A stretch of 64,000 bases of DNA, taken from positions 20,479 to 84,478 of the IMG/VR virus record IMGVR_UViG_3300042731_007310, one strand, 5' to 3'. Within the stretch, counting starts at the first letter, position 1; each line of letters starts with the position of its first letter. The translations under genes and the position numbers were made by a program. The notes under the pieces were generated by a model that was given only the letters and a program-made list of their open reading frames with translations, was not told the origin of the DNA and searched no databases. Below, piece by piece: positions 5,528 through 17,790 of the stretch. Source of the DNA: a virus.

Positions 5528-6412
5528 TTGCTTGGACTGTTATGGGAGCGGAAAAAATATATTGTTTGTAGGGAATGTTGGAATAAAAAGTCACCATTAG
5601 AGTTTTTTGATTCGAAACGAAACAGGTTTTTGAAGACTTGCAAACAATGTAGGGAAAAGAACAGATATCGTGAAAAAATCGATCCAAGAAATGGTCTTCC
5701 GGATCGTGGTCCTATAAGGGTAAAATTCAATCTAAATTCTAACAACACAAAAACCGGAAGTATTCCGGTTAGTATGACTTCTAGTCCTACTTGTCCATTA
5801 TCTTGTTCTTTTCGTAATGGTATTTGTTATTCAGAAGGTCACTTTGTTGGTATGCACTGGAAAAGACTAAGTAATCCTGATGGTAGTGGTGGTGTTACAT
5901 GGGATAAATTTTGTGAAATGGTTTCTAAATTACCAAAGGGTCAAGTGTGGCGACACAATGAAGCTGGTGATCTACCAGGTATAGGGGATGAAATAGACGC
6001 TGTAATGTTGAAGAAATTGATCCTTGCCAATATGGGTAAGATGGGATTTACCTATACTCACAAACCAGTGTTGGAAGATTGTGGTATATCAATATTCAAC
6101 AGAGTGTGTATTTACGAATCGAACACAAAAGGTTTTTGTATCAATTTGTCTGCTAACGATTTAGAACAAGCTGACAGATTATTGAAACTAGGGATAGGTC
6201 CGGTAGTTGTTACTTTACCGGAAGATTGTCAAAAAGAACTGAAAACACCTGGTGGAAAACGTGTTACCGTATGTCCTTCTCAATGGTCGGAAGTTACCTG
6301 TAAAGAATGTAAGATTTGCGCAAACACTAAGCGTAAGTTGATAATAGGTTTTAGGGCTCATGGTTTAGGTAAAAATAAGATTGGCTCAAATTTCCAACTA
6401 TCATTGTTTTGA
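5528..6412 (+). CDS. Cys-rich Gp88-like protein with N-terminal zinc finger and C-terminal QLSLF clamp-binding motif
   Basis: N-terminal CxxC...CxxC; NTKTG; TCPLSCSF..GICY; WRHNEAGDL; FTYTH; INLSA; CP...TCKECKIC; IGFRAHG. This pattern is recurrent in phage Gp88-like proteins. Ends FQLSLF. Confidence 0.6.
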   Translation: MLGLLWERKKYIVCRECWNKKSPLEFFDSKRNRFLKTCKQCREKNRYREKIDPRNGLPDRGPIRVKFNLNSNNTKTGSIPVSMTSSPTCPLSCSFRNGICYSEGHFVGMHWKRLSNPDGSGGVTWDKFCEMVSKLPKGQVWRHNEAGDLPGIGDEIDAVMLKKLILANMGKMGFTYTHKPVLEDCGISIFNRVCIYESNTKGFCINLSANDLEQADRLLKLGIGPVVVTLPEDCQKELKTPGGKRVTVCPSQWSEVTCKECKICANTKRKLIIGFRAHGLGKNKIGSNFQLSLF

Positions 6413-7453: not shown

Positions 7454-7909
7454 ATGGGCTACTTTGATCCAAGAGACGGTAGAAGAAAATCGGATCCATT
7501 GAGATCGTTAGATAGAGCACCAGCATACGCGCCAGACTGGCAACTTCACCGGGTAACGAATGCTCAAGATACGGTTTTTACAGAAAAGAAACATGGCGTA
7601 AATTGTGGTCATTATAAATCTGTAAGATTTGCTATTGTTCCATACGACAATGATCCTACAAGGGTTCCTGGTGCCACACCTGGTGGTTCGGCAAATCCAA
7701 ATGTTGAGGTTATGATTTGGTCTGAAAGTGCTGGTGAATTTCTTTCATTTCCTACCGCACTAACCGGAACTGGTGTTGGTGCTGGTGATCCGTATATGGT
7801 TGACGTTGAAAATGCAAACGGAGCAATTTTATTTGTTGCCGTAACGGCCGCACCTGGTGGTGTTGTTGCAATATCAGCACAAGGTTACGAAATCGATCAT
7901 ACGTTGTAA
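7454..7909 (+). CDS. Hypothetical protein, probable beta-sandwich virion protein
   Basis: RBS AGGAG; Gly/Ala/Thr/Val-rich beta-strand pattern. Confidence 0.6.
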   Translation: MGYFDPRDGRRKSDPLRSLDRAPAYAPDWQLHRVTNAQDTVFTEKKHGVNCGHYKSVRFAIVPYDNDPTRVPGATPGGSANPNVEVMIWSESAGEFLSFPTALTGTGVGAGDPYMVDVENANGAILFVAVTAAPGGVVAISAQGYEIDHTL

Positions 7910-8178
7910 TGCCCTTCCCCAACGAGCACGCGGCTAGACAAGCCGATCCTGATAGCTTTGATACTTTCCGTAGGGGAAAGCCGAAGGGCTTTCCCCGTGG
8001 TATATCTGTTATATTTGGTATAAAGAATGGTAAATCACGTATTCGGACCATCCGTTTCGATCGTAAACTATGGACTGTTGCGCGCGCTAGAGAGTGGCTA
8101 AAAAATCATGGTTTCAAATCAACCATAGAAGCCGCTTCGAAAAAAGTAAAAAAAGGTTTTTGGAAAGGGATAATCTAG
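7909..8178 (+). CDS. Small basic phage head-associated domain protein with C-terminal KGFWKGII tag
   Basis: PFPNEHAAR..DP..F..FRR...GISVIFG...IRFD...WT...AREWLKNH, a domain I recall fused to phage head proteins; C-terminus matches the scaffold tail. Confidence 0.65.
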   Translation: MPFPNEHAARQADPDSFDTFRRGKPKGFPRGISVIFGIKNGKSRIRTIRFDRKLWTVARAREWLKNHGFKSTIEAASKKVKKGFWKGII

Positions 8179-8217
8179 TATCGTTATGTTCAACTTCAAA
8201 TTTACAAGGGACTTCTA

Positions 8218-9690
8218 ATGTCCCTTGCACTATCCATACCGACTGAAAAACAGATTCGTAAGGCCGATAGGGTCCAATTGGAAACTTACTATCGCGATAC
8301 GTATCAGACTAGGGATGGATGGATTAGAAAACAAGTTTTAGAAAACAACAGGATTGACATACTGGCTATTGAAGTTCTTGGAAAGCAAATAGAACCTTTT
8401 CATTTGTCACTTCTGAAATATCAATTTGCTCATCCAGAAAATTTACAATTGTGTTTCCGTGGCGCTGGTAAATCAACCGTTTGTACTGAAATAAAAACGA
8501 TACACTTACTTCTGAAAAATCCAAACCTAAGAATATTGATTGCTTCTAAAACTATAGCTAATGCTAAAGGATTTTTAAAAAATATAAAATCTCATTTTGA
8601 AACTAACCAAAGGTTAGAAGAGATATTTGGTCAATACTATGATCCACGTCGAGTAGGAAAATGGGATGAAGTAGAAATAGAAGTGTTGCCAAGGACAATA
8701 GTTGCCAAAGAAGCATCAGTTACTTGTGTTGGTGTTGAAGGTACTGTTGTTTCTAAACACTACGATATAATAATATCTGATGATTTGATTGATGAAGAAA
8801 ACAGTAGAAGTAAGCTTCAAAGGGACAAAACACGTACGTGGTTTTACAACACGTTGATGCCAACGTTAGAACCGCCAGATCCGGAAGTGGAACACCGTGG
8901 TGAACATCATATGTTAGGGACTCGCTATCATTATGACGATTTATATGGTCATCTAATAGATAACGAATTGAAGGAACACCACCAAATAATTCCAGCGCTT
9001 GATAATAACGGCCGTAGTCCATGGCCTAAAAAGTTTTCGCCTAAGTGGTTTGCGGAAAAACGTAAGCGTTCCGGACTAATCATCTTCAACTGTCAATATC
9101 AGTGTGACACCGAAGCGATGAAGGGCGAGATCTTCCAATATGATCAGTGTCAACAAATATCTGAAGAAGAATGGCCAGATCACAAGAATCTTCGCGTTTT
9201 TATGGGTGTTGATCTTGCTATTAGCGAAAGTGAATCAGCCGATAAATTCGCTATAGTAGTCATAGGAATAAATAGAGACAGAAGTGCTTACTACGTTCTA
9301 GATTATTATGAAAATCAATTGAGATTCAAAGAACAGACAAAAAAGATACTGGAATACTATCGAAGATGGCGACCTATTAGGTGTGCAATCGAGACAAATC
9401 AATATCAAGCCGCACAATATCAAACCTTGAAGGAAAAGAATCCAGATATTCGACTGAAGAAGGTTCAAACTGACAAAGACAAAATAACGAGAGCTTGGAA
9501 ATTGTCGTCAATTTTTGAAGACAATAGAGTGTTTTTTAGGAAGGGAATACAGGCATTATTGATAGAGCATATGGTTCTATTCCCAAACCATAGGTATAAA
9601 GATCTCTTTGATGCTTTCGATTTATCGGTACAAGCGAGTAAAATGAAACGAAAAAGGCGTAGAAGAGAAACGGAACCGGGAGTAATGTAA
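8218..9690 (+). CDS. terL: Terminase large subunit
   Basis: Walker A-like FRGAGKST, HYDIIISDDLID Walker B, GTRYHYDDLYG motif III, FNCQYQC, nuclease GVDLAIS, IETNQYQ, FPN..YKDLFDA. Confidence 0.93.
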   Translation: MSLALSIPTEKQIRKADRVQLETYYRDTYQTRDGWIRKQVLENNRIDILAIEVLGKQIEPFHLSLLKYQFAHPENLQLCFRGAGKSTVCTEIKTIHLLLKNPNLRILIASKTIANAKGFLKNIKSHFETNQRLEEIFGQYYDPRRVGKWDEVEIEVLPRTIVAKEASVTCVGVEGTVVSKHYDIIISDDLIDEENSRSKLQRDKTRTWFYNTLMPTLEPPDPEVEHRGEHHMLGTRYHYDDLYGHLIDNELKEHHQIIPALDNNGRSPWPKKFSPKWFAEKRKRSGLIIFNCQYQCDTEAMKGEIFQYDQCQQISEEEWPDHKNLRVFMGVDLAISESESADKFAIVVIGINRDRSAYYVLDYYENQLRFKEQTKKILEYYRRWRPIRCAIETNQYQAAQYQTLKEKNPDIRLKKVQTDKDKITRAWKLSSIFEDNRVFFRKGIQALLIEHMVLFPNHRYKDLFDAFDLSVQASKMKRKRRRRETEPGVM

Positions 9691-9691
9691 A

Positions 9692-11542
9692 ATGGACAAA
9701 TCAGAACAACATAAGGCTACTATTTCGTCCAATAAAGCAAACAAGAAAGCGCTTCAGAAGGTTCGCGCTTTAGTAATAGACGTAAGTAAATCTGGTGCGG
9801 CTAATGGTTTGACAAGTAGTAATGCTGAACCTGGTAGATCTGAAGCTTTACCTGAAGAACCGTTTCACGCATTAGGGCATATGGGGAAAATACTTCTTCC
9901 GCCTTTCGATATGCTTACGTTGTCAATGTTGGTTGAGAATAATAGCGAGCTAAATCAGTGTATAGAAGCGATGGAAACCAATATTGACGCAACCGGTCAT
10001 AGGTTCATTTCTAGGCTAAGAATGGATGATATAACACCTACAAGTAATGATTCGGGTGAATCACAAGGAGAGCTTACACCGGAACAAGAAAAACTTATCT
10101 TGAACGCAAAGAAAGAAAAGGTTGGTTTGATCAATTTCTTTACCTATGCGACTTCAGAAAGTTTCGTTTCTTTTCGTAGAAAGTTGAGAAAAGATATTGA
10201 GTCAACAGGAAATTGTTACTTTGAAATAATCCGGAATGACGCTGGACAGATTCAGGGTTTTACTCATTTGCCTAGCTATCAAATGAGAATAGGTAAATTA
10301 GAAGAAGAACCCGTTGAATCTGAAAGGAGTATTCTAGAACTTCAAATAGACGGATCTGTGAAAATAAAAAAGCAAAAAGTAATTCGAAGATTCAGAAACT
10401 ATGTTCAAAGTAGATCTATTCATCAGGGAAGGGCTCAATCATCCATTACTGGTCATAAGGTTGTTTGGTTCAAAGAATTTGGTGATCCAAGATTCTACAG
10501 TAAAAGAGATGGTAAAGAAAGGAAGAGAATACAAAAAGAAGATAGGGCTACTGAAGTAATGCATCTAAAAATTTATAGCCCTAGAAGTGCTTACGGATTA
10601 CCGCGATACATTGGTAATCTACTTTCAATATTTGGTGATCGTGCGGCTGAAGAAATAAATTGGATAACCTTCAAGAACAACAACATACCTAGTATGGTTA
10701 TTGCTGTATCAAATGGGCAATTGACACAAGCAAGCGTAGAAAGAATTCAATCATTTGTTGAGTCTCAAATACAAGGATCTGACAACTATTCAAAGTTTCT
10801 TTTGGTTGAAGCTGAATCGTTGGGTGAAGAAGAAGGTGAAGATGGTGGTCAGGTAAAGATAGATATAAAGCCATTGACAGATAACCAACATAATGACGCA
10901 CTATTTCAAAATTATAGTGAAAATAATCAAGATAAAATTAGGCGTGCTTTTAGACTTCCACCTATTTTCGTTGGAAAAGCAAAGGACTATACGCGCGCTA
11001 CCGCTGAATCTTCAAGACGATTAGCTGATGAACAAATATTCAAACCAGAAAGAGACGAATTCGACGAATGTATAAACAGAATGTTGTTTCCAGAAATGGG
11101 TATAATTTATCATAAGTATAGGAGTAATACGCCAAACACCACGGATAACGCTCAATTAGTGAAGATTCTTGGTGGTGCCGAAAAGACTGGTGGTATAACT
11201 CCGCGAATTGCAAGGTTCATAATCGAAGATATTTTAGGTATAGACCTTCCGGACTTTCCGGATGATTTCCCCGCTGATGTTCCATTCTCTATGACTATGG
11301 CGCAAGCCGTAAAGAACAAGGCCGATCCGACTGAACCCGGTCAACAGGTCACAGCATTGAAGACATTGAAGTCACTTGGAATAATCGACGATGACGGTGA
11401 TTTTGATTTGGCAAGTCTTGAACTTGAGGATCTGGATGAGAGTGATCCTGAAAGTGTAATGGACGTTGCTAAAAAATTGTTGTCATTGAACAGAGCGGCT
11501 GAAATTTTGTGGCGTCAAAAAGTTATGGAAGAAGTTGAATGA
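9692..11542 (+). CDS. Portal protein (PBSX family)
   Basis: Follows TerL; DIESTGNCYFEIIRN, EVMHLKIYSP...YGLPRYIG, FKNNNIPS, AFRLPPIFVG...YTRATAE. Confidence 0.9.
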   Translation: MDKSEQHKATISSNKANKKALQKVRALVIDVSKSGAANGLTSSNAEPGRSEALPEEPFHALGHMGKILLPPFDMLTLSMLVENNSELNQCIEAMETNIDATGHRFISRLRMDDITPTSNDSGESQGELTPEQEKLILNAKKEKVGLINFFTYATSESFVSFRRKLRKDIESTGNCYFEIIRNDAGQIQGFTHLPSYQMRIGKLEEEPVESERSILELQIDGSVKIKKQKVIRRFRNYVQSRSIHQGRAQSSITGHKVVWFKEFGDPRFYSKRDGKERKRIQKEDRATEVMHLKIYSPRSAYGLPRYIGNLLSIFGDRAAEEINWITFKNNNIPSMVIAVSNGQLTQASVERIQSFVESQIQGSDNYSKFLLVEAESLGEEEGEDGGQVKIDIKPLTDNQHNDALFQNYSENNQDKIRRAFRLPPIFVGKAKDYTRATAESSRRLADEQIFKPERDEFDECINRMLFPEMGIIYHKYRSNTPNTTDNAQLVKILGGAEKTGGITPRIARFIIEDILGIDLPDFPDDFPADVPFSMTMAQAVKNKADPTEPGQQVTALKTLKSLGIIDDDGDFDLASLELEDLDESDPESVMDVAKKLLSLNRAAEILWRQKVMEEVE

Positions 11543-12771
11543 AAACGGTCGATTTATACCACGGACTTCATTGTGAATGTTGTTCTAGTCGTATCAATAT
11601 TCTTCATGATGTTTTAGCGTATTCTGATGAAGCCATAGCTAAGGCGTTGATGATAAGCGACGTTGCACATATGGCAAGGATTGAAGTGCGTATGCGCGAA
11701 TACCTTTTGTCAAAATGGAGATTACGCGCAGATCAAGCGGCTAAAAAGGCTGGTGGTGTATACGCGAGTACGGGATCTTTGAAAACGTCTTTCGCGGCTG
11801 TAGACAAAATAATGGATAAATGGGATGAAGAAGTAGCCGTTCGTTTTGGTAAAGATATAGGAGAAATTTACAAGTTAGCTAGAAATGCCGGTTGGAAAAA
11901 AGCAAACGGTCAAACTTCAGCTTCACTACAATATATTGTTCCTAACTTCACCGAAGAACTGGAAGAAAAGGTGAAGAAGGCAAAAAAAATAAAAAGAAGG
12001 GTTGCCGCTGTAAAACCTTCTTTCGACTTGTTTGATGAACAAGCCGTGATGCAACTACAAGACGATCAAATGTTATGGATAGGAGTTCATTACAATAAGA
12101 ATGTAAGAGACACTGTAAGGGAATCGGTAAAACCTAGTGTAGTAGAAGGGGTAAGTAGAACTGAAGCCGGAAGGCGTGTGGCTGAAGCCGTTGGAAAACA
12201 ACTGAGAAAAATAACGGTCCCTGGTGGATTCAACGGATCTGATGCAAAGTATTTTGAAGGTTTAGCCGCTAATACGGCTACCAATAGTCGCGTTCGTGGT
12301 CAATTACGAAGCTTCGTTGATGTAGGGGTTACCAGATATGAAATAATGAATCCAATGGATAACAGAACTTCACCCATTTGTGCTTATATGAATGGAAAGG
12401 TTTTTACTATTAGAGAAGGGGCCTCACTAATCGCTAAAGTTTCTGGTGCTACTAATCCAGATCAGGTAAAAGAAGCTCACCCATGGGTATCAACAACGGA
12501 AGCAAAAAGAATAGGTAGTGGTGGTGAAAGAGCCCTTGCTAAAGCTGGTTTATCACTTCCACCATATCATTTTCGTTGTAGAAGCACGGTAGACATATCT
12601 ACTGAATCTGTTTCATTTGGTTCGTTATCGAAAGCCGAAATGATAGACGTTCCTAGTCGTAAACAACCGACTAGACAAAATACTCCAAAGAATAGAAAGC
12701 CTACTTCAAAACCAAAGCAATCCAAACCTACCAAACGTCCTGCAACACTTCCGGAAATTGGTAAAGTTTGA
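11539..12771 (+). CDS. Minor head morphogenesis protein (MuF / SPP1 gp7-like)
   Basis: DNRTSPICAYMNGKVF and LPPYHFRCRST MuF signature; lies after the portal gene. Confidence 0.88.
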   Translation: MKTVDLYHGLHCECCSSRINILHDVLAYSDEAIAKALMISDVAHMARIEVRMREYLLSKWRLRADQAAKKAGGVYASTGSLKTSFAAVDKIMDKWDEEVAVRFGKDIGEIYKLARNAGWKKANGQTSASLQYIVPNFTEELEEKVKKAKKIKRRVAAVKPSFDLFDEQAVMQLQDDQMLWIGVHYNKNVRDTVRESVKPSVVEGVSRTEAGRRVAEAVGKQLRKITVPGGFNGSDAKYFEGLAANTATNSRVRGQLRSFVDVGVTRYEIMNPMDNRTSPICAYMNGKVFTIREGASLIAKVSGATNPDQVKEAHPWVSTTEAKRIGSGGERALAKAGLSLPPYHFRCRSTVDISTESVSFGSLSKAEMIDVPSRKQPTRQNTPKNRKPTSKPKQSKPTKRPATLPEIGKV

Positions 12772-12803
12772 AGGTCTAGCGGATATCACGCTATCATAAA
12801 AAT
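12768..12803 (+). promoter_or_regulatory. Putative sigma70-type promoter giving a leaderless transcript of the protease gene
   Basis: TTGAAG (12768-73), N18, TATCAT (12792-97), then 6 nt to ATG 12804 with no Shine-Dalgarno. Confidence 0.4.
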
Positions 12804-13343
12804 ATGAACGATATTGCGCGCCACATTGAAGGCATAGCTGAATGTGTCAGAAAAACAACCGTTCCAGCGCTTAGAGAAGAAGCGCGAAAAGAAATGGTTG
12901 TTGATACAGAAAAAGATACGTCTACAGAAAATTCACCAGATGAACAGAAGTCCGTAAAAAAGCAGATAGAAGTTTCGATCGCTAAAGCAGACGAAGAACA
13001 ACAGACGGTTACTGGTATTGTACTTCAGCCTGAAGTGGTGGATGGTCAAGGCGATATCATGTCTGAAGAAGTTATTAGAGATAGCGCTTATGCTTTTCTG
13101 ATGAACTTCAATAAGGCAACCAAATTAGGCATTCAGCACAATAAATTCCCTGTTGGAAAACTTGCGTTGGTTGAAAGTTGGCTTTCTCCTATGGAAATGG
13201 CAATAGGTACTAAGACGGTCAAACAGGGTTCTTGGATTATGACCGTAAAAATACTGGACAAAAAACTTTGGGAGAAAGTAAAGAAGGGTGAAATAACCGG
13301 CTTTAGTATTGGTGGTAAGGCCAAGGTTGTTGCATCAACATAG
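12804..13343 (+). CDS. xkdF: XkdF-like prohead (serine) protease domain
   Basis: KADEEQQTVTGIVLQPEVVDGQGD, IQH, LVESWLSP, KQGSWIMTVKI...LWEKVKKGEITGFSIGG. Confidence 0.88.
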   Translation: MNDIARHIEGIAECVRKTTVPALREEARKEMVVDTEKDTSTENSPDEQKSVKKQIEVSIAKADEEQQTVTGIVLQPEVVDGQGDIMSEEVIRDSAYAFLMNFNKATKLGIQHNKFPVGKLALVESWLSPMEMAIGTKTVKQGSWIMTVKILDKKLWEKVKKGEITGFSIGGKAKVVAST

Positions 13344-13359
13344 CAAGGAAACCAAAATC

Positions 13360-14319
13360 ATGCCTAAGAAACCTACGAGAAGATTTCTAAAATTAGATAC
13401 CAATGAGGTATCGTTAGTTGATGTTCCAGCAAACGAAGTTCCGTTTCTGGTTACTAAAAATCAAGATCAAATGGAGAATGATAACATGAGTGCACAAGCC
13501 GGAAATCAAAACATCGACGGTGAAAGTGTTCAAGTGCAAGTTGACGGTTCCGAAAGTTCCGTTCAAAAGGCAATAGAACATGTTAATTCTATCGTCGAAA
13601 ATATCACGAAAGTTGTCACCGTAAAAAACCAGGGAGCGGAAGGAAACGAACAAGATAACGCTCAATCGGCCGATTCCGGTGATACCACAGATGTTAGCAA
13701 GGCTACGATCAAGTCCGTACTTTCTGCTTTAGGAATGAGCGGAGATGATATGAAAAAGGCTTGCGACAAATTGAAGGCGGCTGGATTCAATCCAAATCAG
13801 CAATTCCCTTCAGCACAACCACCTGTCAAAAAGGATGCAAAGGGTGAAGGTTCTGAAGGTGAAACGGAAACACAAAAGTCTGATACCGATTCTGTCGTAC
13901 AGGATCAACCGCTTACCATGCAATCGCTAGCTGAAGCTGTTCAAAAAGCAGCGGCTTTTACGCCTAGCAGAATAGAACAACTGAAGAATGCTCAGGAAAT
14001 CTTGAAGCTTGTTCTTGAAGCGGTTGCTCCCAATACATCACCCAAAACAAAAGTTCCGGGTGTTGAGAGTCATAGCAATCCGAGTGCCGTAAGCGATCTT
14101 TCTCAACCGACCAAGAAGCCGGTTATGAAGAATGCTGATGATAACGGAGAATTTGTTACAGCACTCAAAGCGCTAGCTGATGGCGTAAAGACCCTAACGG
14201 AACGTGTCGAGAATATCGAAAAGACTCGTAACGCTAGCAATAGCGTAGAAGATGACGGTGACACTGACACCAATACGGATACACAAAAGAGTAAAGGCCT
14301 TTGGAACGGACTTCTGTAG
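13360..14319 (+). CDS. Capsid scaffolding protein carrying the 'EVSLVDxPAN' protease strand at its N-terminus
   Basis: Between protease and MCP; RBS AAGGA before ATG 13360; low-complexity body, C-terminal coiled coil (LKALADGVKTLTERVENIEKTR) and tail KSKGLWNGLL. Confidence 0.8.
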   Translation: MPKKPTRRFLKLDTNEVSLVDVPANEVPFLVTKNQDQMENDNMSAQAGNQNIDGESVQVQVDGSESSVQKAIEHVNSIVENITKVVTVKNQGAEGNEQDNAQSADSGDTTDVSKATIKSVLSALGMSGDDMKKACDKLKAAGFNPNQQFPSAQPPVKKDAKGEGSEGETETQKSDTDSVVQDQPLTMQSLAEAVQKAAAFTPSRIEQLKNAQEILKLVLEAVAPNTSPKTKVPGVESHSNPSAVSDLSQPTKKPVMKNADDNGEFVTALKALADGVKTLTERVENIEKTRNASNSVEDDGDTDTNTDTQKSKGLWNGLL

Positions 14320-14371
14320 AGAATAACGGTCACAAGGCGCAAACAAAAGAAACTTTCAAGGAGAAACAGAA

Positions 14372-15574
14372 ATGACTATTTCAAATGAGGACATTGTCAG
14401 CAAGGCGGCAATCACCGCTGATGCAATAGCGGCAAGCGGAAAGTTGAACAATGCGCAATCAGATCGTTTCATCGATTTTGTTATTGATGAGACCGTTCTA
14501 AAGGACAACGCGCGTATCGTTCGGTTCCGAAACGAAAATCTAGAAATCGATAAAATCGGTGTTGGCCGACGTGTGGCCGTACCGAAGTCTGAAGCGGTTG
14601 ACCCACAGGTTAGACGCGGAATCACGACTTCAAAAGTTACTTTGACTCCGCACGAATTATGCGTTCCGTTCGAGATCGGTGATAGCTTCAGAGAGCTGAA
14701 TATCGAAGGTGATAGCATCGAAGAAACAATTATCCGATTGATGGCTACGCAACTTGCAAACGATCTGGAAGATCTATACATCAATGGTAACGAACTAGGT
14801 CCAGCGGTTCCACAATCCGATATTTTGGAAAATGGAAGTTCAGACGAAGTCAAAGATGCATACTTGGCACTCTGTGACGGTTGGTCTATTCTCGCTGATG
14901 GTTCGAACATCGTTGACGCGCAAGGCCAAAATATCGGTCTATCGATTTTCAGCAAAGCAATCCGAGCCATGCCGACCAAATTTAGACGGAATCGATCGGC
15001 TCTACGGTGGTTTATCAGTCCGGACCTTTGGCAGCTATACCTAGAGAAGTTGTCAACGCGCGCTACCGCGTTGGGTGATGACGCTGCTAGGGGTGGTGGT
15101 GGAATGCCTGGACCTTTCGGAATTACCGCTGTTCCAGTTCCGTTGTGGGAGTTTGAACCGCTTACGGTTGAACATGTGACCTTGACCGGAACAACCGCTG
15201 TAGCTCTAGCTAACGCCCCTGTAGTTGACGTTGTAGTTCATCCGGAAACGTTGGATAAGGTTCCTACCGTTGCTTATGTTGAAGGCGCTGGTAATGACTA
15301 TATCCTTGACGCAACCAACGGAACGATAGCTCGTGACGGTGCTAGTACAATTGGTAGTGGCGATACGGTCAAAGTAACCTACCGTTCGAATCCACAGATT
15401 CTATTGACCCATATGAATAACATGATCATTGGTATCGGACGTGATATCAGAATCGAAAAGGATCGTGATATCTATAAGGGCGTGAATCAGTATGCGATTA
15501 CCGCGAAAGTTGACGTAGAATATGAGGAACTTACGGCAATCGTGAAGGTTAGAAACATCGGAAAGGGTGTATAA
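14372..15574 (+). CDS. Major capsid protein (HK97 fold, XkdG/P2-like) with an inserted beta domain
   Basis: RBS AAGGAG; GKLNNAQSDRFID, NIEG, ANDLEDLYINGN, MPTKFRRN, NMIIGIGRDIRIEKDRD. Confidence 0.92.
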   Translation: MTISNEDIVSKAAITADAIAASGKLNNAQSDRFIDFVIDETVLKDNARIVRFRNENLEIDKIGVGRRVAVPKSEAVDPQVRRGITTSKVTLTPHELCVPFEIGDSFRELNIEGDSIEETIIRLMATQLANDLEDLYINGNELGPAVPQSDILENGSSDEVKDAYLALCDGWSILADGSNIVDAQGQNIGLSIFSKAIRAMPTKFRRNRSALRWFISPDLWQLYLEKLSTRATALGDDAARGGGGMPGPFGITAVPVPLWEFEPLTVEHVTLTGTTAVALANAPVVDVVVHPETLDKVPTVAYVEGAGNDYILDATNGTIARDGASTIGSGDTVKVTYRSNPQILLTHMNNMIIGIGRDIRIEKDRDIYKGVNQYAITAKVDVEYEELTAIVKVRNIGKGV

Positions 15575-15658
15575 TTACTACCCAAAAATAAGCTTGTGAT
15601 GTATTTTCACTAAGCAACAACGATCATTTTGATTGATCCAAACAAGGAGATTCAAGAA

Positions 15659-16147
15659 ATGGCAAAAGGTTTTCAAGCAAAAATACAGTTATCTAAGACA
15701 AAACGCGCCCCCGTATCCCACACGGGATTTAGGGGGCGTTTCGTCAAAAAGGGCGATAGCTTCATCACAACGGATCCCGTTGAAGTTCGGTATTATCAGT
15801 CTCAACCTGGTTTTAGCATAGCGATCTTATCGGGAAAGTTTACGGCTAAACCGGTTCAAGAAGAAGAGATTGATGAAGATATCGACGAACGGGATGACGA
15901 AGATGAAGTTGAAGAAGAAGACGAAGAACGTAACGAAGAAGTAGATGGTCTTTACGAAAAAGCAGACCTGAAAAAAATGAGTCAAAAGGATTTGAAAAAA
16001 CTCATAAAAGACGATGACGAACTTCCGTTGACGTTGAAGGATATTCCGAAGAAGGCGAGCAAAAACGAAATAATCGATTTGATTTTGGAAGCACAAAATC
16101 AATCGGACGATGACGACGAAGAAGACGACGAAGAAGACGACGAATAA
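15659..16147 (+). CDS. Acidic head-associated protein with HeH/Rho-N-like domain
   Basis: RBS AAGGAG; LKKMSQKDLKKLI...KASKNEIIDLIL; two D/E tracts; position right after MCP is typical for HeH/LEM proteins. Confidence 0.65.
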   Translation: MAKGFQAKIQLSKTKRAPVSHTGFRGRFVKKGDSFITTDPVEVRYYQSQPGFSIAILSGKFTAKPVQEEEIDEDIDERDDEDEVEEEDEERNEEVDGLYEKADLKKMSQKDLKKLIKDDDELPLTLKDIPKKASKNEIIDLILEAQNQSDDDDEEDDEEDDE

Positions 16148-16180
16148 GCCGTATCATTGTCGCTTCAGGGAGATTGAACC

Positions 16181-16561
16181 ATGTTTTTTATCAAATTCGG
16201 ACATAACGCTTCAATCCAACAGGTTGAAGGATTTCCGAAAGATTGTGAGCGTTCGTGTGAAGGCGCTCTACATGTGAGACCAGGGGCGACAAAAAATGTC
16301 ACAAAATCCGAATTGGAACGACTTCAAGAATTGAAAATTCCCCTGATGGTTATACGCGAGCCAGTAAAAGTCAAAGTGGTCGAATCAGAATCAACAGAAT
16401 TGCCCAGTGACGATGTTGAAATCATACTTTCTACGCCATACGACGAAAATTCTGATCTATCGGTCGTAGAAAACTTTGACGCCTTAGAAGGGCATTCTGT
16501 GGACTCTGAAGAAGATTCAGACCAAAAAGAGAAAAAGGGGAAAAAGCGAAAGAAGTACTAG
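16181..16561 (+). CDS. Hypothetical protein
   Basis: GGGAG RBS; operon orientation. Confidence 0.65.
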   Translation: MFFIKFGHNASIQQVEGFPKDCERSCEGALHVRPGATKNVTKSELERLQELKIPLMVIREPVKVKVVESESTELPSDDVEIILSTPYDENSDLSVVENFDALEGHSVDSEEDSDQKEKKGKKRKKY

Positions 16562-16591
16562 TTCCGATCGGCTCCAACCGAAAGAACTGTT

Positions 16592-17005
16592 GTGCTGAAG
16601 ATACACACATGTGACGGCCAAACACTTAGGGTTGATTTGGCTGATGAAGAACAAGCGCGCTTTTGGCTTGAACGTTTGGGTAAAGAAGAGTTTCAAGCTA
16701 CAATCAATGGTGTGTCATTGGTGGAACGACATAACGTTGGAAGGTGTTCTGAATGTGGTAGAAAATACGGTAAAGAGATCGGTGTTCAGTATTCGATTAC
16801 AAGACCGGATGATTTCCGAAAAGTGTTTTTCCATATCGAAAATATTCCAGCTAACGGAAAGATAAAGGGTGGTGAAAGGGTAACCGTGTTTTCTGATGAA
16901 ATACGCCTTGTCCTTATGGCTCATCGTTCACAACCAGCGGCTAGAATAACAGTATCAAAAACCGGAAAGCAGAAATACAATCCATTTCAGGGAGCGAAAA
17001 AATGA
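16592..17005 (+). CDS. Hypothetical protein (CxxC insert)
   Basis: GTG start; ATGA overlap with the next gene. Confidence 0.6.
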   Translation: MLKIHTCDGQTLRVDLADEEQARFWLERLGKEEFQATINGVSLVERHNVGRCSECGRKYGKEIGVQYSITRPDDFRKVFFHIENIPANGKIKGGERVTVFSDEIRLVLMAHRSQPAARITVSKTGKQKYNPFQGAKK

Positions 17006-17790
17006 GTAATCCCATTACACAAAATATTTTTGTTCGTAAAGATATCAAATTGGCAACTGGCGAAAGTGTCAGTGACTTCACTAAAAAGTTGCGTGAAAGT
17101 TGCGTGAAATGGGCTAGACAGAAATTGGCGCTTGATGTGAAGAAGGGAGATATCTATCCGGTTGAGATTTTCAGTTCAGCCGTTGTTTTTGATGTCTATA
17201 AATACGACTCTGAACCCGGAAACAGACAACAGTATTTCGCTTGTAAATACAAGCGTCAAGATACTGGTGGGTTTGAATTTGAAAGTCTAATGGAAGTCGA
17301 AAGGGTTGTTTCATTTCAACAGAAACAAAATGCCCCTGTTATGAAGTCCAAAGGAATCGAAGTAGACGTTGAAAAGGCGCCATTGTCTACGGCTACAATC
17401 AACGATTTACCAGATGCGGCTTTCGCGATTATTCTACCTGGTGGAAAAAAAGACGCGAGCGGAAAAACTACACCACGTAATCTTCGAATGTTGCCGCATC
17501 ATACGCGCAATGTTCAGAGTGCTAGCGAAGATAGTACGATTGATATGCCACGTTTGAGGAATGCATTAGCAAGATTGAATCAAGCTAAGTTGAGTCAGGA
17601 ACAAAGAAGTAGGGCTAGTAATCATTTGGATAAACACGCTAATGCGGTTTTGGCTAGCCGTGGTGGTGATCCAGGGAAGATCGATGCTACCCGTGGAAAT
17701 CGCGCTGGTGCTAAACCAGTAAAGAAGGCACTTGACGTTTGTGATGGTTGGATAGAAACGTCAAAATCATTTTGGAATGGAGTGATCTGA
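17002..17790 (+). CDS. Two-domain head-associated protein with C-terminal KSFWNGVI tag
   Basis: Second domain INDLPDAAFA..PGG.KD..GKT.PR.LR.LPHH...ID.PRLRNALARL.Q is one I recall in phage head/protease proteins; tail matches the scaffold tail. Confidence 0.75.
   Translation: MSNPITQNIFVRKDIKLATGESVSDFTKKLRESCVKWARQKLALDVKKGDIYPVEIFSSAVVFDVYKYDSEPGNRQQYFACKYKRQDTGGFEFESLMEVERVVSFQQKQNAPVMKSKGIEVDVEKAPLSTATINDLPDAAFAIILPGGKKDASGKTTPRNLRMLPHHTRNVQSASEDSTIDMPRLRNALARLNQAKLSQEQRSRASNHLDKHANAVLASRGGDPGKIDATRGNRAGAKPVKKALDVCDGWIETSKSFWNGVI

What the first reader, a model, noticed from the sequence alone, without database searches (positions are those of the whole stretch)
7909..17790. Shared C-terminal W-x-G tag on the scaffold and two unrelated proteins: candidate capsid cargo-loading system
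Seen: three proteins with unrelated bodies end in the same octapeptide pattern exactly at the C-terminus. These are ORF 7909-8178 (KKVKKGFWKGII*), the scaffold 13360-14319 (TQKSKGLWNGLL*) and ORF 17002-17790 (ETSKSFWNGVI*). I saw no other ORF in the window ending this way. Established: phage scaffolds (P22, herpes, 80alpha) bind coat protein through their extreme C-terminus, and encapsulins load cargo through short terminal peptides. Inference: the phage copied the scaffold's coat-binding tail onto passenger domains so they are co-packaged into the prohead as internal or ejected proteins. One passenger gene lies outside the head module, upstream of TerL, so the tag behaves as a portable address label.
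Basis: partly seen in the sequence, partly recalled or inferred. Interest (0 to 1): 0.9.

Follow-up and report, generated by a model that had tools for sequence, protein, structure and literature searches.

The report
Shared capsid-address tail on phage proteins
In this uncultured tailed phage and its relatives, the scaffolding protein and two unrelated small head-module proteins end in the same conserved eight-residue tail, which most likely addresses them to the inside of the assembling capsid, though binding is not yet shown.

Summary
Exactly three ORFs of the whole 84-kb phage record end in Phi-W-x-G-Phi-Phi-stop. About 0.075 (loose pattern) or 0.0005 (strict pattern) were expected among 83 + strand ORFs.

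- **Bodies:** they are unrelated. BLASTP aligns only the tails.
- **Conservation:** across 23 non-redundant related IMG/VR loci plus the window, the tail sits on 18 of 20 BLAST-recognised scaffolds, 7 of 7 homologues of the 89-aa protein and 11 of 14 homologues of the 262-aa protein. It is on no other + strand ORF except one further scaffold identified by position only, and on none of 1561 - strand ORFs.
- **Structure:** AlphaFold2 places both passenger tails on floppy ends.
- **Fusions elsewhere:** both passenger domains occur fused to prohead proteases, scaffolds or capsid proteins in other phages. They also occur joined to each other ahead of one tail.
- **Cleavage motif:** a [VIT]-x-K-[ASGN] motif precedes most tails. 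It is enriched in the scaffold and in the 262-aa protein.

Docking on the capsid protein and actual packaging remain inferred. I rate this a new variant of known capsid-targeting signals.

The parts
7909..8178 (+). Passenger 1: an 89-aa protein. It has a compact domain (residues about 5-75) that begins with the nearly invariant motif MPFPNEHAARQ, followed by a floppy tail.
   Evidence: Translation. AF2 gives pLDDT above 90 for 68 of 89 residues, and the last block averages 52. In 23 homologues W85 is nearly invariant. In other phages the domain sits at the N-terminus of protease polyproteins.
8152..8175 (+). Tail of passenger 1 (last 8 codons, KGFWKGII).
12804..13343 (+). XkdF-type prohead protease. 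It carries no tail of its own and ends shortly after the GFSIGG strand.
   Evidence: Pfam PF14550 at 8.7e-33; phrog_3017 at 1.2e-35.
13360..14319 (+). Scaffolding protein. Its N-terminal strand motif (EVSLVD.PAN) follows the protease domain in fused relatives. The middle is acidic and helical, and a polar linker leads to the tail.
   Evidence: It holds 9 [VIT]-x-K-[ASGN] sites against 1.8 expected.
14293..14316 (+). Tail of the scaffold (last 8 codons, KGLWNGLL).
   Evidence: The tail is kept on 18 of 20 BLAST-recognised scaffolds of relatives.
14372..15574 (+). Major capsid protein, the presumed receptor of the tail. It has a conserved V-x-K-A at residues 9-12.
   Evidence: phrog_1623 at 1.2e-72; tblastn to annotated capsid proteins; alignment A2.
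17002..17790 (+). Passenger 2: a 262-aa protein. It comprises an N-domain (about 10-100), a linker, a DUF6582-like domain (about 125-220) and a disordered tail (228-262).
   Evidence: Translation. AF2 model. Alignment A3. Homologues and fusions. It holds 5 [VIT]-x-K-[ASGN] sites against 1.2 expected.
17764..17787 (+). Tail of passenger 2 (last 8 codons, KSFWNGVI).
   Evidence: In alignment A3, W258 is invariant across the 29 sequences.

Best explanation
The C-terminal peptide has the consensus K-[SG]-x(0-3)-Phi-W-x-G-[VIL]-[VIL]-COOH. I read it as the scaffolding protein's docking peptide for the inner face of the assembling capsid shell.

In this phage clade the same peptide, on a flexible linker, has been placed on two families of small accessory proteins. 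As a result they are recruited into the procapsid alongside the scaffold. In most other phages the same accessory domains get there by being covalently fused to the prohead protease, scaffold or capsid protein.

A [VIT]-x-K-[SGAN] site lies just upstream of most tails. It probably lets the XkdF protease cut the tail off after assembly, which would release the scaffold for exit and free the passengers in the capsid lumen.

Shown here:
- The motif exists, is exclusive to these proteins, is conserved and is modular.
- The tails are predicted to be disordered.
- The passenger domains occur in protease polyproteins elsewhere.
- The candidate site motif is enriched.

Inferred:
- That the capsid protein is the receptor.
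- That the proteins are actually packaged.
- That the tail is cleaved.
- That the passengers are later ejected into the host.
For: 1. Exclusivity. 3 of 797 frames in the whole record carry the tail. Across the window plus 23 non-redundant related loci, 37 of 1161 + strand ORFs carry it against 0 of 1561 - strand ORFs, with about 1 expected. All 37 are scaffolds (18 by BLAST and 1 by position), passenger-1 homologues (7) or passenger-2 homologues (11).

2. A scan of IMG/VR with a degenerate pattern for K-[S/T/R]-[F/L]-W-x-G-V-[L/F]-TAA gave 26 matches. Sixteen lie in ORFs of 93-329 aa, and all 16 are scaffold-like (11), passenger 2 (4) or passenger 1 (1). The other 10 lie in frames of 2-47 aa that are not genes. 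At least three of the 16 lie on contigs already held.

3. In five complete related genomes of 104-114 kb, 9 of 10 W-x-G-Phi-Phi-stop matches fall in the three families and 1 falls in a 16-aa frame. The backwards control pattern gave 2 matches.

4. In protein databases, 28 of the 31 best passenger-2 homologues match the relaxed pattern [WF]-x-x-[VILMA]-[LIVMF]-stop. W85 is nearly invariant in the passenger-1 family; by my reading of the alignment 21 of 23 keep it.

5. Tails are floppy in the AF2 models. pLDDT is under 50 for residues 228-262 of passenger 2, and the last block of passenger 1 averages 52.

6. Fusions elsewhere.
- The passenger-1 domain lies inside the protease-capsid fusion proteins of Synechococcus phage S-CBS3 and Roseobacter phage CRP-821.
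- Of 114 longer cluster representatives scanned (118 existed; 4 were left out for the size limit), 34 carry XkdF, 10 Mu-like protease I, 10 Peptidase_S78, 10 DUF2213 and 1 ClpP.
- The passenger-2 central domain lies in the 661-aa protein Tsac_2860, encoded directly downstream of a large gene that follows the terminase in Thermoanaerobacterium phage THSA-485A. I read that large gene as the portal and the gene after Tsac_2860 as the capsid gene from gene order; both are annotated as hypothetical. Tsac_2860 matches a head-maturation-protease family.
- The same central domain is fused to Peptidase_S78 (10) or XkdF (4) among the 120 listed hits.

7. Modularity. Some members of the passenger-2 family carry the passenger-1 domain in the middle, ahead of the same tail. 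Others carry nothing there.

8. [VIT]-x-K-[ASGN] lies within the 12 residues ending just before the W in 17 of 18 scaffolds, 10 of 11 passenger-2 homologues and 3 of 7 passenger-1 homologues. The background is 5.8% of 12-residue windows. In the window it is enriched in the scaffold (9 against 1.8 expected, 0 of 2000 shuffles reach 9), in passenger 2 (5 against 1.2, P = 0.0045) and in the capsid protein (4 against 1.2, P = 0.026). It is not enriched in 15 other proteins.

9. Precedent. The 80alpha scaffold and SaPI1 CpmB share a C-terminal motif that binds the capsid protein's N-arm (PMC5644958, passages read).
Against: - No test here shows binding of the tail to the capsid protein or to anything else.
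- No virion or prohead proteome exists for these uncultured phages.
- Of 32 standalone representatives of the passenger-1 domain across all lineages, 24 lack the tail and mostly end right after the domain. The domain therefore does not always need this address.
- The tail need not be strictly terminal. Distant scaffolds (L026, L027, L029, Streptomyces phage Wofford) carry the W-x-G core followed by 2 to about 17 more residues, and by my reading of the tails printed a few passenger tails carry one extra residue.
- In 3 of 14 passenger-2 homologues the loose pattern fails. One of these keeps the W and two lack the tail altogether.
- The own-genome co-variation test was mixed. Passenger 1 against passenger 2 tails gave P of about 0.005-0.01 (6 genomes). 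Passenger 2 against scaffold gave 0.03-0.33 (12 genomes). Passenger 1 against scaffold gave 0.48-0.98 (7 genomes).
- The site motif was defined on these same proteins, by an earlier AI note and by me, so its enrichment is not an independent test.
- Fold searches gave no function for either passenger.
Confidence: 0.6

Rival explanations
1. The tail is a prohead address, but its receptor is not the capsid protein. It could dock on the XkdF protease, which has no tail of its own, on the portal, or on another scaffold molecule.
For: The protease here is a separate gene without the tail. A candidate cleavage motif lies next to the tail, so the tail could act as a substrate-docking element. Nothing here tests which partner it binds.
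Against: The scaffold already carries, at its N-terminus, the strand that follows the protease domain in fused relatives. That gives a separate route to the protease. In the systems I could read about, the scaffold C-terminus binds the capsid protein (PMC5644958). The portal offers only 12 sites for hundreds of scaffold copies (general knowledge).
Confidence: 0.15
2. The tail does bind the capsid protein, but the two small proteins are not cargo. They would be auxiliary or competing assembly factors, as CpmB is for 80alpha, that tune nucleation, size or timing and then leave with the scaffold.
For: The closest documented case of a shared scaffold tail, CpmB, is a competing scaffold (PMC5644958). 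Passenger 1 is only a 75-residue domain, and neither passenger matched any enzyme family in Pfam, PHROGs or the fold searches.
Against: The same domains travel in polyproteins together with cargo-type enzymes: Dam-type methyltransferase, 2H phosphoesterase, a Tad3-like Thoeris-inhibitor domain, and pyrophosphatase. That is the architecture of packaged 'polyvalent' proteins (PMC5512222, passages read). Neither passenger is predicted to have long coiled coils.
Confidence: 0.12
3. The tail is a signal unrelated to the capsid. It could be a C-terminal degron for a host protease, or a membrane or chaperone contact, shared by proteins that must be removed or localised late in infection.
For: Short hydrophobic C-termini are classic degradation tags (general knowledge). 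Scaffolds must be removed after assembly.
Against: The tail is found only on the scaffold and on proteins whose domains are head-associated elsewhere. The invariant residue is a Trp followed by a small residue, not a generic non-polar end. The phage encodes its own prohead protease.
Confidence: 0.05
4. The likeness is a relic of common descent or recombination of gene 3' ends, with no shared function.
For: Passenger 1 and passenger 2 tails resemble each other more within a genome than between genomes. That pattern could reflect exchange of gene ends.
Against: The tail is kept while the rest of the scaffold falls to 26-45% identity. W is invariant or nearly so in all three families. A relic would decay.
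Confidence: 0.03

Closest known systems
80alpha scaffolding protein and SaPI1 CpmB (shared C-terminal 'helix-and-hook' with an RIIK motif)
   Same: Two proteins with different bodies end in the same conserved peptide. In that system the peptide binds the capsid protein's N-arm inside the procapsid (PMC5644958, passages read).
   Different: That motif is a helix plus an RIIK hook. Here the tail is a W-x-G peptide on a disordered linker. CpmB is a rival scaffold encoded by a satellite, whereas here the phage itself encodes the extra tagged proteins and their domains are cargo-like. Binding is solved there and only inferred here.
Encapsulin cargo-loading peptides
   Same: A short terminal peptide on a flexible linker addresses unrelated cargo to the inside of an HK97-fold shell. 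The peptide is portable between cargo domains (recalled; search listing and abstracts only).
   Different: Encapsulins have no scaffold, portal or terminase, and their peptide consensus differs (recalled). Here the peptide is also the scaffold's own end, and it is probably removable by a prohead protease.
Capsid targeting sequences of T4 internal proteins and of P1 DarB
   Same: A short peptide suffices to load unrelated proteins into a phage head. In T4 it is later cut off by the prohead protease (as described in PMC9024508, passages read).
   Different: Those signals are N-terminal. Here the signal is C-terminal and identical in kind to the scaffold's end.
Protease and scaffold sharing one C-terminus (HK97 protease C-terminal targeting; nested lambda C/Nu3 and Mu I/Z genes; herpesvirus protease-scaffold with a release site near the capsid-binding end)
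   Same: The scaffold's capsid-binding end carries another protein into the procapsid, and a protease site next to it releases the load. This is recalled. For Duda, Oh and Hendrix 2013 I saw only the title in a reference list, and the paper is not held.
   Different: In those cases the shared end arises from one gene or from nested translation. Here three separate, non-overlapping genes with unrelated bodies carry it.
Polyvalent proteins with a C-terminal assemblin-like peptidase (Iyer et al. 2017)
   Same: The same accessory domains, with counter-defence enzymes, are strung in front of a prohead protease and are thought to be packaged (PMC5512222, passages read; P0150 and P0153).
   Different: In the window the modules are free-standing genes that carry an address peptide instead of a covalent link to the protease.

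Membership tests
Scaffold-type C-terminal capsid-binding peptide shared with a second protein (80alpha SP / CpmB kind) | The peptide lies at the extreme C-terminus of the scaffolding protein and is conserved among relatives. | tested here: met
   18 of 20 BLAST-recognised scaffolds end in the tail, plus one scaffold identified by position.
Scaffold-type C-terminal capsid-binding peptide shared with a second protein (80alpha SP / CpmB kind) | The same peptide ends a protein whose body is otherwise unrelated. | tested here: met
   BLASTP aligns only the tails. Two such families were found.
Scaffold-type C-terminal capsid-binding peptide shared with a second protein (80alpha SP / CpmB kind) | Helix-and-hook structure with the RIIK motif. 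| tested here: not met
   The tails read Phi-W-x-G-Phi-Phi with no RIIK, and AF2 gives them low confidence.
Scaffold-type C-terminal capsid-binding peptide shared with a second protein (80alpha SP / CpmB kind) | The peptide binds the capsid protein inside the procapsid. | not testable with these tools
   This needs co-assembly or a procapsid structure.
Encapsulin cargo-loading system | A short terminal peptide on a flexible linker, shared by unrelated cargo. | tested here: met
Encapsulin cargo-loading system | The shell gene stands without portal, terminase or tail genes. | tested here: not met
   Terminase, portal, MuF-like, protease and sheath genes surround it.
T4-type capsid targeting sequence | The signal lies at the N-terminus of the internal protein. 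| tested here: not met
   The shared peptide is C-terminal.
T4-type capsid targeting sequence | The signal is removed by the prohead protease after assembly. | tested here: inconclusive
   A candidate site precedes most tails and is enriched in the scaffold and in passenger 2. No cleavage data exist.
Polyvalent protein with C-terminal assemblin-like peptidase | Accessory domains and protease lie in one polypeptide. | tested here: not met
   In the window the passengers and the protease are separate genes. Relatives of the domains in other phages do meet this feature.
Peptidase_S78_2 (XkdF) prohead protease, for 12804-13343 | Pfam model matched above its gathering score. | tested here: met
   113.4 bits against a cut-off of 24, covering model positions 4-125 of 126.
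DUF6582 (PF20223), for residues about 125-220 of the 262-aa protein | Pfam model matched above its gathering score. | tested here: not met
   The protein itself has no Pfam hit at E of 0.01 or below. The link is through homologues that do carry PF20223. I therefore write 'DUF6582-like'.

The most novel reading that the evidence does not exclude
A tailed phage clade uses an encapsulin-style cargo-loading peptide that is the scaffold's own capsid-docking end. The tag is about eight residues long, transferable and protease-releasable. It loads interchangeable small modules into the procapsid for delivery with the DNA. That would link phage scaffolds, protease-fused 'polyvalent' cargo and encapsulin cargo peptides as variants of one loading principle, and it would offer a minimal natural tag for loading proteins into phage heads.
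Probability: 0.35. Interest if true: 0.75.

Novelty: new variant of a known kind. Interest (0 to 1): 0.6.

Why it matters
How proteins that are not fused to a protease or scaffold get inside HK97-type phage heads is known for only a few model phages, such as T4 and P1. If this reading holds, it gives four things:
- a short natural C-terminal address, readable from sequence alone, for finding packaged proteins in metagenomic phages;
- a natural example of the same cargo domains switching between covalent fusion and peptide addressing;
- a plausible evolutionary bridge between scaffold ends and encapsulin cargo peptides;
- a candidate eight-residue tag for loading foreign proteins into capsids.

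The function of the two passenger domains is still unknown. One of them has 3479 cluster representatives in public data. That limits the immediate biological pay-off.

Tried and rejected
- **Complex prediction.** Capsid protein (alignment A2) with the 89-aa protein (alignment A1) returned 'no answer', score 0.08 against a mark of 0.32. I draw nothing from it either way.
- **Function of the passengers.** Sequence search of solved structures found nothing for the passengers or the capsid protein. Foldseek and VIA-align gave only weak look-alikes. For the 89-aa protein this was a plant BRX domain (Z 5.1, 50 residues aligned, rmsd 2.4 A). For the N-domain of the 262-aa protein it was cystatin-like folds at E of 0.09 or worse. 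No function follows from these. ESM Atlas neighbours of that N-domain by structure were clusters bearing prohead proteases (TM 0.56-0.64), which I treat as a lead only. The Atlas gave nothing useful for the 89-aa protein.
- **Scaffold in cultured phages.** tblastn of the scaffold against 50,697 phage records found no match. No cultured close relative was found.
- **Recoding.** I considered a frameshift or read-through that would fuse protease and scaffold. The frame offset between the two genes is 0, 1 or 2 in 6, 9 and 9 of 24 sources, so I rejected it.
- **Apparent fusion in L028.** An apparent scaffold-capsid fusion of 644 aa is an arginine-rich upstream extension of the reading frame, not a fusion.
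- **Own-genome co-variation of tails.** The result was mixed. For that test I dropped L013, a duplicate of L012. I also dropped L006, L008 and L009, which are near-identical to L007 and L010, and L029, whose motif is not terminal. The two passenger-2 homologues without W or F at position -5 (L016, L021) were dropped as well.
- **L042.** One pattern match in a 47-aa frame lies out of frame in a replication region and is a chance match.
- **Literature.** Searches found no paper describing this W-x-G tail, or a scaffold tail shared with phage-encoded passenger proteins. This covers only the held library. PMC12991175 and PMC13669383 held nothing on the point in the passages I read. PMC12749128 gave only background on HK97 and D3 assembly.

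Full report
**What is there**

The window is part of an 84,478-base viral record with 39% G+C. It holds a late gene string on the + strand:
- the 89-aa gene (7909-8178)
- large terminase (8218-9690)
- portal (9692-11542)
- a MuF-like protein (11539-12771)
- an XkdF-type prohead protease (12804-13343; Pfam PF14550, E = 8.7e-33)
- a 319-aa acidic protein (13360-14319)
- the major capsid protein (14372-15574; phrog_1623, E = 1.2e-72)
- three small genes
- the 262-aa gene (17002-17790)

Tail genes follow, including a sheath. The 319-aa protein is a scaffold by position and composition. Its residues 197-319 also match the C-terminal end of phrog_3017, a family in which the XkdF domain and this region lie in one protein.

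**The observation**

The three ORFs end in KGFWKGII, KGLWNGLL and KSFWNGVI directly before the stop. No other frame ends this way: 3 of 563 frames in the window and 3 of 797 in the whole record, even with a loose pattern. From composition, 0.075 loose or 0.0005 strict matches are expected among 83 + strand ORFs (P = 6.6e-5 and 2.6e-11). BLASTP of each pair aligns only the tails.

**Conservation**

A scan of IMG/VR with the capsid protein gave 27 related loci at 51-98% capsid identity. I dropped one duplicate and three near-identical loci, then added the window.
- The loose tail pattern is found on 37 of 1161 + strand ORFs and 0 of 1561 - strand ORFs, with about 1 expected.
- All 37 are scaffolds (18 of the 20 that BLAST recognises, plus one identified by position), homologues of the 89-aa protein (7 of 7) or homologues of the 262-aa protein (11 of 14).
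- Of the three passenger-2 exceptions, one keeps the W and two lack the tail.
- One scaffold has F in place of W, and one has the motif short of the end.
- The scaffolds' bodies have fallen to 26-45% identity while the tail stays.

In protein collections, 28 of the 31 best homologues of the 262-aa protein match a relaxed pattern that also allows F in place of W. In the 89-aa family W85 is nearly invariant; by my reading of the alignment 21 of 23 keep it.

A degenerate DNA pattern for one common form of the tail matched 26 places in 2.9 million viral contigs. The 16 that lie in ORFs of 93 aa or more are all from the three families, and the other 10 lie in frames of 2-47 aa that are not genes. 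Some of these contigs were already held.

Five complete related genomes hold 10 matches to W-x-G-Phi-Phi-stop. Nine are in the three families and one is in a 16-aa frame. The backwards control pattern gave 2. The system therefore has a scaffold and at most two passenger families per genome.

**Anatomy of the passengers**

AlphaFold2 with family alignments gives these models:
- The 89-aa protein has a compact domain (68 of 89 residues at pLDDT 90 or above) and a floppy end.
- The 262-aa protein has two folded domains (about 10-100 and 125-220), a disordered linker (105-122) and a disordered end (228-262).

The tails are thus short peptides on flexible linkers. Fold and sequence searches of solved structures gave no convincing function.

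**Where the same domains occur elsewhere**

The domain of the 89-aa protein begins with the nearly invariant MPFPNEHAARQ.
- It lies inside the giant protease-capsid fusion proteins of Synechococcus phage S-CBS3 and Roseobacter phage CRP-821.
- A profile search of 1.84 billion representatives found 3479 matches.
- Among the best 150, the script's classes give the domain at the N-terminus of a longer protein in 54 and at an internal or unclassified position in 54.
- Of 114 longer ones scanned (4 of 118 were left out for the size limit), 34 carry XkdF, 10 Mu-like protease I, 10 Peptidase_S78, 10 DUF2213 and 1 ClpP. Cargo-type enzymes accompany them, such as 2H phosphoesterases, Dam-type methyltransferases and a pyrophosphatase.
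- One protein strings this domain, a LigT-like phosphoesterase, a Tad3-like Thoeris-inhibitor domain and XkdF together.

The central domain of the 262-aa protein (LPDAAFA motif, DUF6582-like) also travels with head genes.
- It lies in the 661-aa protein Tsac_2860 of Thermoanaerobacterium phage THSA-485A. That gene follows a large gene downstream of the terminase, which I read as the portal, and precedes what I read as the capsid gene. Both readings rest on gene order, because both neighbours are annotated as hypothetical.
- Tsac_2860 matches a head-maturation-protease family (phrog_80, E = 1e-6).
- Among the 120 listed hits the domain is fused to Peptidase_S78 in 10 and to XkdF in 4.

This is the architecture that Iyer and colleagues call polyvalent proteins with a C-terminal assemblin-like peptidase, which they take to be packaged (PMC5512222, passages read). 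These fusions place both passenger domains inside proheads in other phages.

**Modularity**

Within the family of the 262-aa protein, the N-domain and the tail are constant and the middle varies. It is DUF6582-like in the window, absent in short members, or a copy of the 89-aa protein's domain. The tail thus ends strings of interchangeable modules.

**A candidate release site**

I tested a slightly narrower form, [VIT]-x-K-[ASGN].
- It lies within the 12 residues ending just before the W in 17 of 18 scaffolds, 10 of 11 homologues of the 262-aa protein and 3 of 7 homologues of the 89-aa protein. The background is 5.8% of 12-residue windows.
- V/I-x-K-A/G stands near residue 10 of the capsid protein in 22 of 23 sources.
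- In the window it is enriched in the scaffold (9 against 1.8 expected; 0 of 2000 shuffles reach 9), in the 262-aa protein (5 against 1.2; P = 0.0045) and in the capsid protein (4 against 1.2; P = 0.026). It is not enriched in 15 other proteins.
- In the 262-aa family, K125, which precedes the central domain, is nearly invariant, and it lies just after the low-confidence segment 105-122 of the model.

The motif was defined on these same proteins, so this is support and not proof. The layout resembles what I recall of herpesvirus scaffolds, where a protease site next to the capsid-binding end releases the scaffold.

**Mechanism proposed**

1. The tail docks on the inner face of the shell during assembly. 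This is inferred from the rule, seen for the 80alpha scaffold and CpmB, that the scaffold's C-terminal end binds the capsid protein (PMC5644958).
2. The two passengers ride in by the same contact.
3. XkdF then cuts at the site before the tail. That frees the scaffold to leave and leaves the passengers in the lumen.

The receptor, the uptake, the cleavage and any ejection are all inferred. The one complex prediction I could run gave no answer and counts for nothing.

**What speaks against it or limits it**

- Of 32 standalone representatives of the 89-aa protein's domain across all lineages, 24 lack the tail.
- The W-x-G core is not strictly terminal in distant scaffolds.
- Own-genome co-variation of tails was clear only between the two passengers.
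- No cultured close relative exists.
- The passengers' functions are unknown.

**Comparison and novelty**

The closest documented case is the RIIK end shared by the 80alpha scaffold and the satellite protein CpmB. Here the motif and its predicted structure differ, and the extra tagged proteins are the phage's own. In working principle it is closest to encapsulin cargo peptides and, with the opposite polarity, to the T4 and P1 capsid targeting sequences (PMC9024508).

My eight literature searches found no description of this tail, or of a scaffold end shared with phage-encoded passengers, in the held library. I rate it a new variant of a known kind. Interest is 0.6: it is a clean, testable, sequence-readable address signal, but it rests on inference for the key binding step.

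Noticed in passing
12804-13460 (+): The protease gene stops about 9 residues after its GFSIGG strand. The next gene, the scaffold, opens with the strand motif EVSLVD.PAN. In fused relatives (Streptomyces phage Wofford, Thermoanaerobacterium phage THSA-485A) that motif follows GFSIGG in the same chain at similar spacing. The split is present in all 24 sources where both genes were recognised, with frame offsets of 0, 1 or 2 in 6, 9 and 9 of them, so no recoding joins them. The scaffold's N-terminus may complete or tether the protease, which would explain how a tail-less protease enters the prohead.
   Followed up: partly
13360-14319, 14372-15574, 17002-17790 (+): [VIT]-x-K-[ASGN] is enriched in the scaffold, the capsid protein and the 262-aa protein. 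It is conserved at residues 9-12 of the capsid protein, where it is probably the maturation cut.
   Followed up: partly
P0150 and P0153 (database proteins): These polyproteins begin with the 89-aa protein's domain and end in XkdF. Between those ends they carry a LigT-like 2H phosphoesterase plus a Tad3-like Thoeris-inhibitor domain, or a Dam-type methyltransferase. They look like counter-defence cargo carried into capsids by the protease.
   Followed up: partly
L019, L025, L026, L027 (XkdF genes): In more distant relatives the XkdF domain is the C-terminal end of proteins of 673, 1118, 950 and 799 aa. The MuF-like protein ranges from about 360 to 938 aa among relatives. The cargo load on both carriers is therefore variable.
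   Followed up: no
L004:2811-5327: In the closest relative (capsid protein 98% identical) the large terminase ORF is 838 aa against 490 aa in the window, and only its first 316 residues align to the first 326 of the window's protein in the top hit. An insertion such as an intein or a homing element is possible.
   Followed up: no
5528-6412 (+): This Cys-rich 294-aa protein ends in QLSLF, which resembles a sliding-clamp-binding motif (recalled). The ending is kept in L004.
   Followed up: no
17002-17340 (+), residues about 10-100 of the 262-aa protein: The N-domain is a helix packed on a four-stranded sheet, with weak cystatin-like matches (Foldseek E of 0.09 or worse). Its structural neighbours in the ESM Atlas are clusters that bear prohead proteases (TM 0.56-0.64). 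It may be a third protease-associated module.
   Followed up: partly
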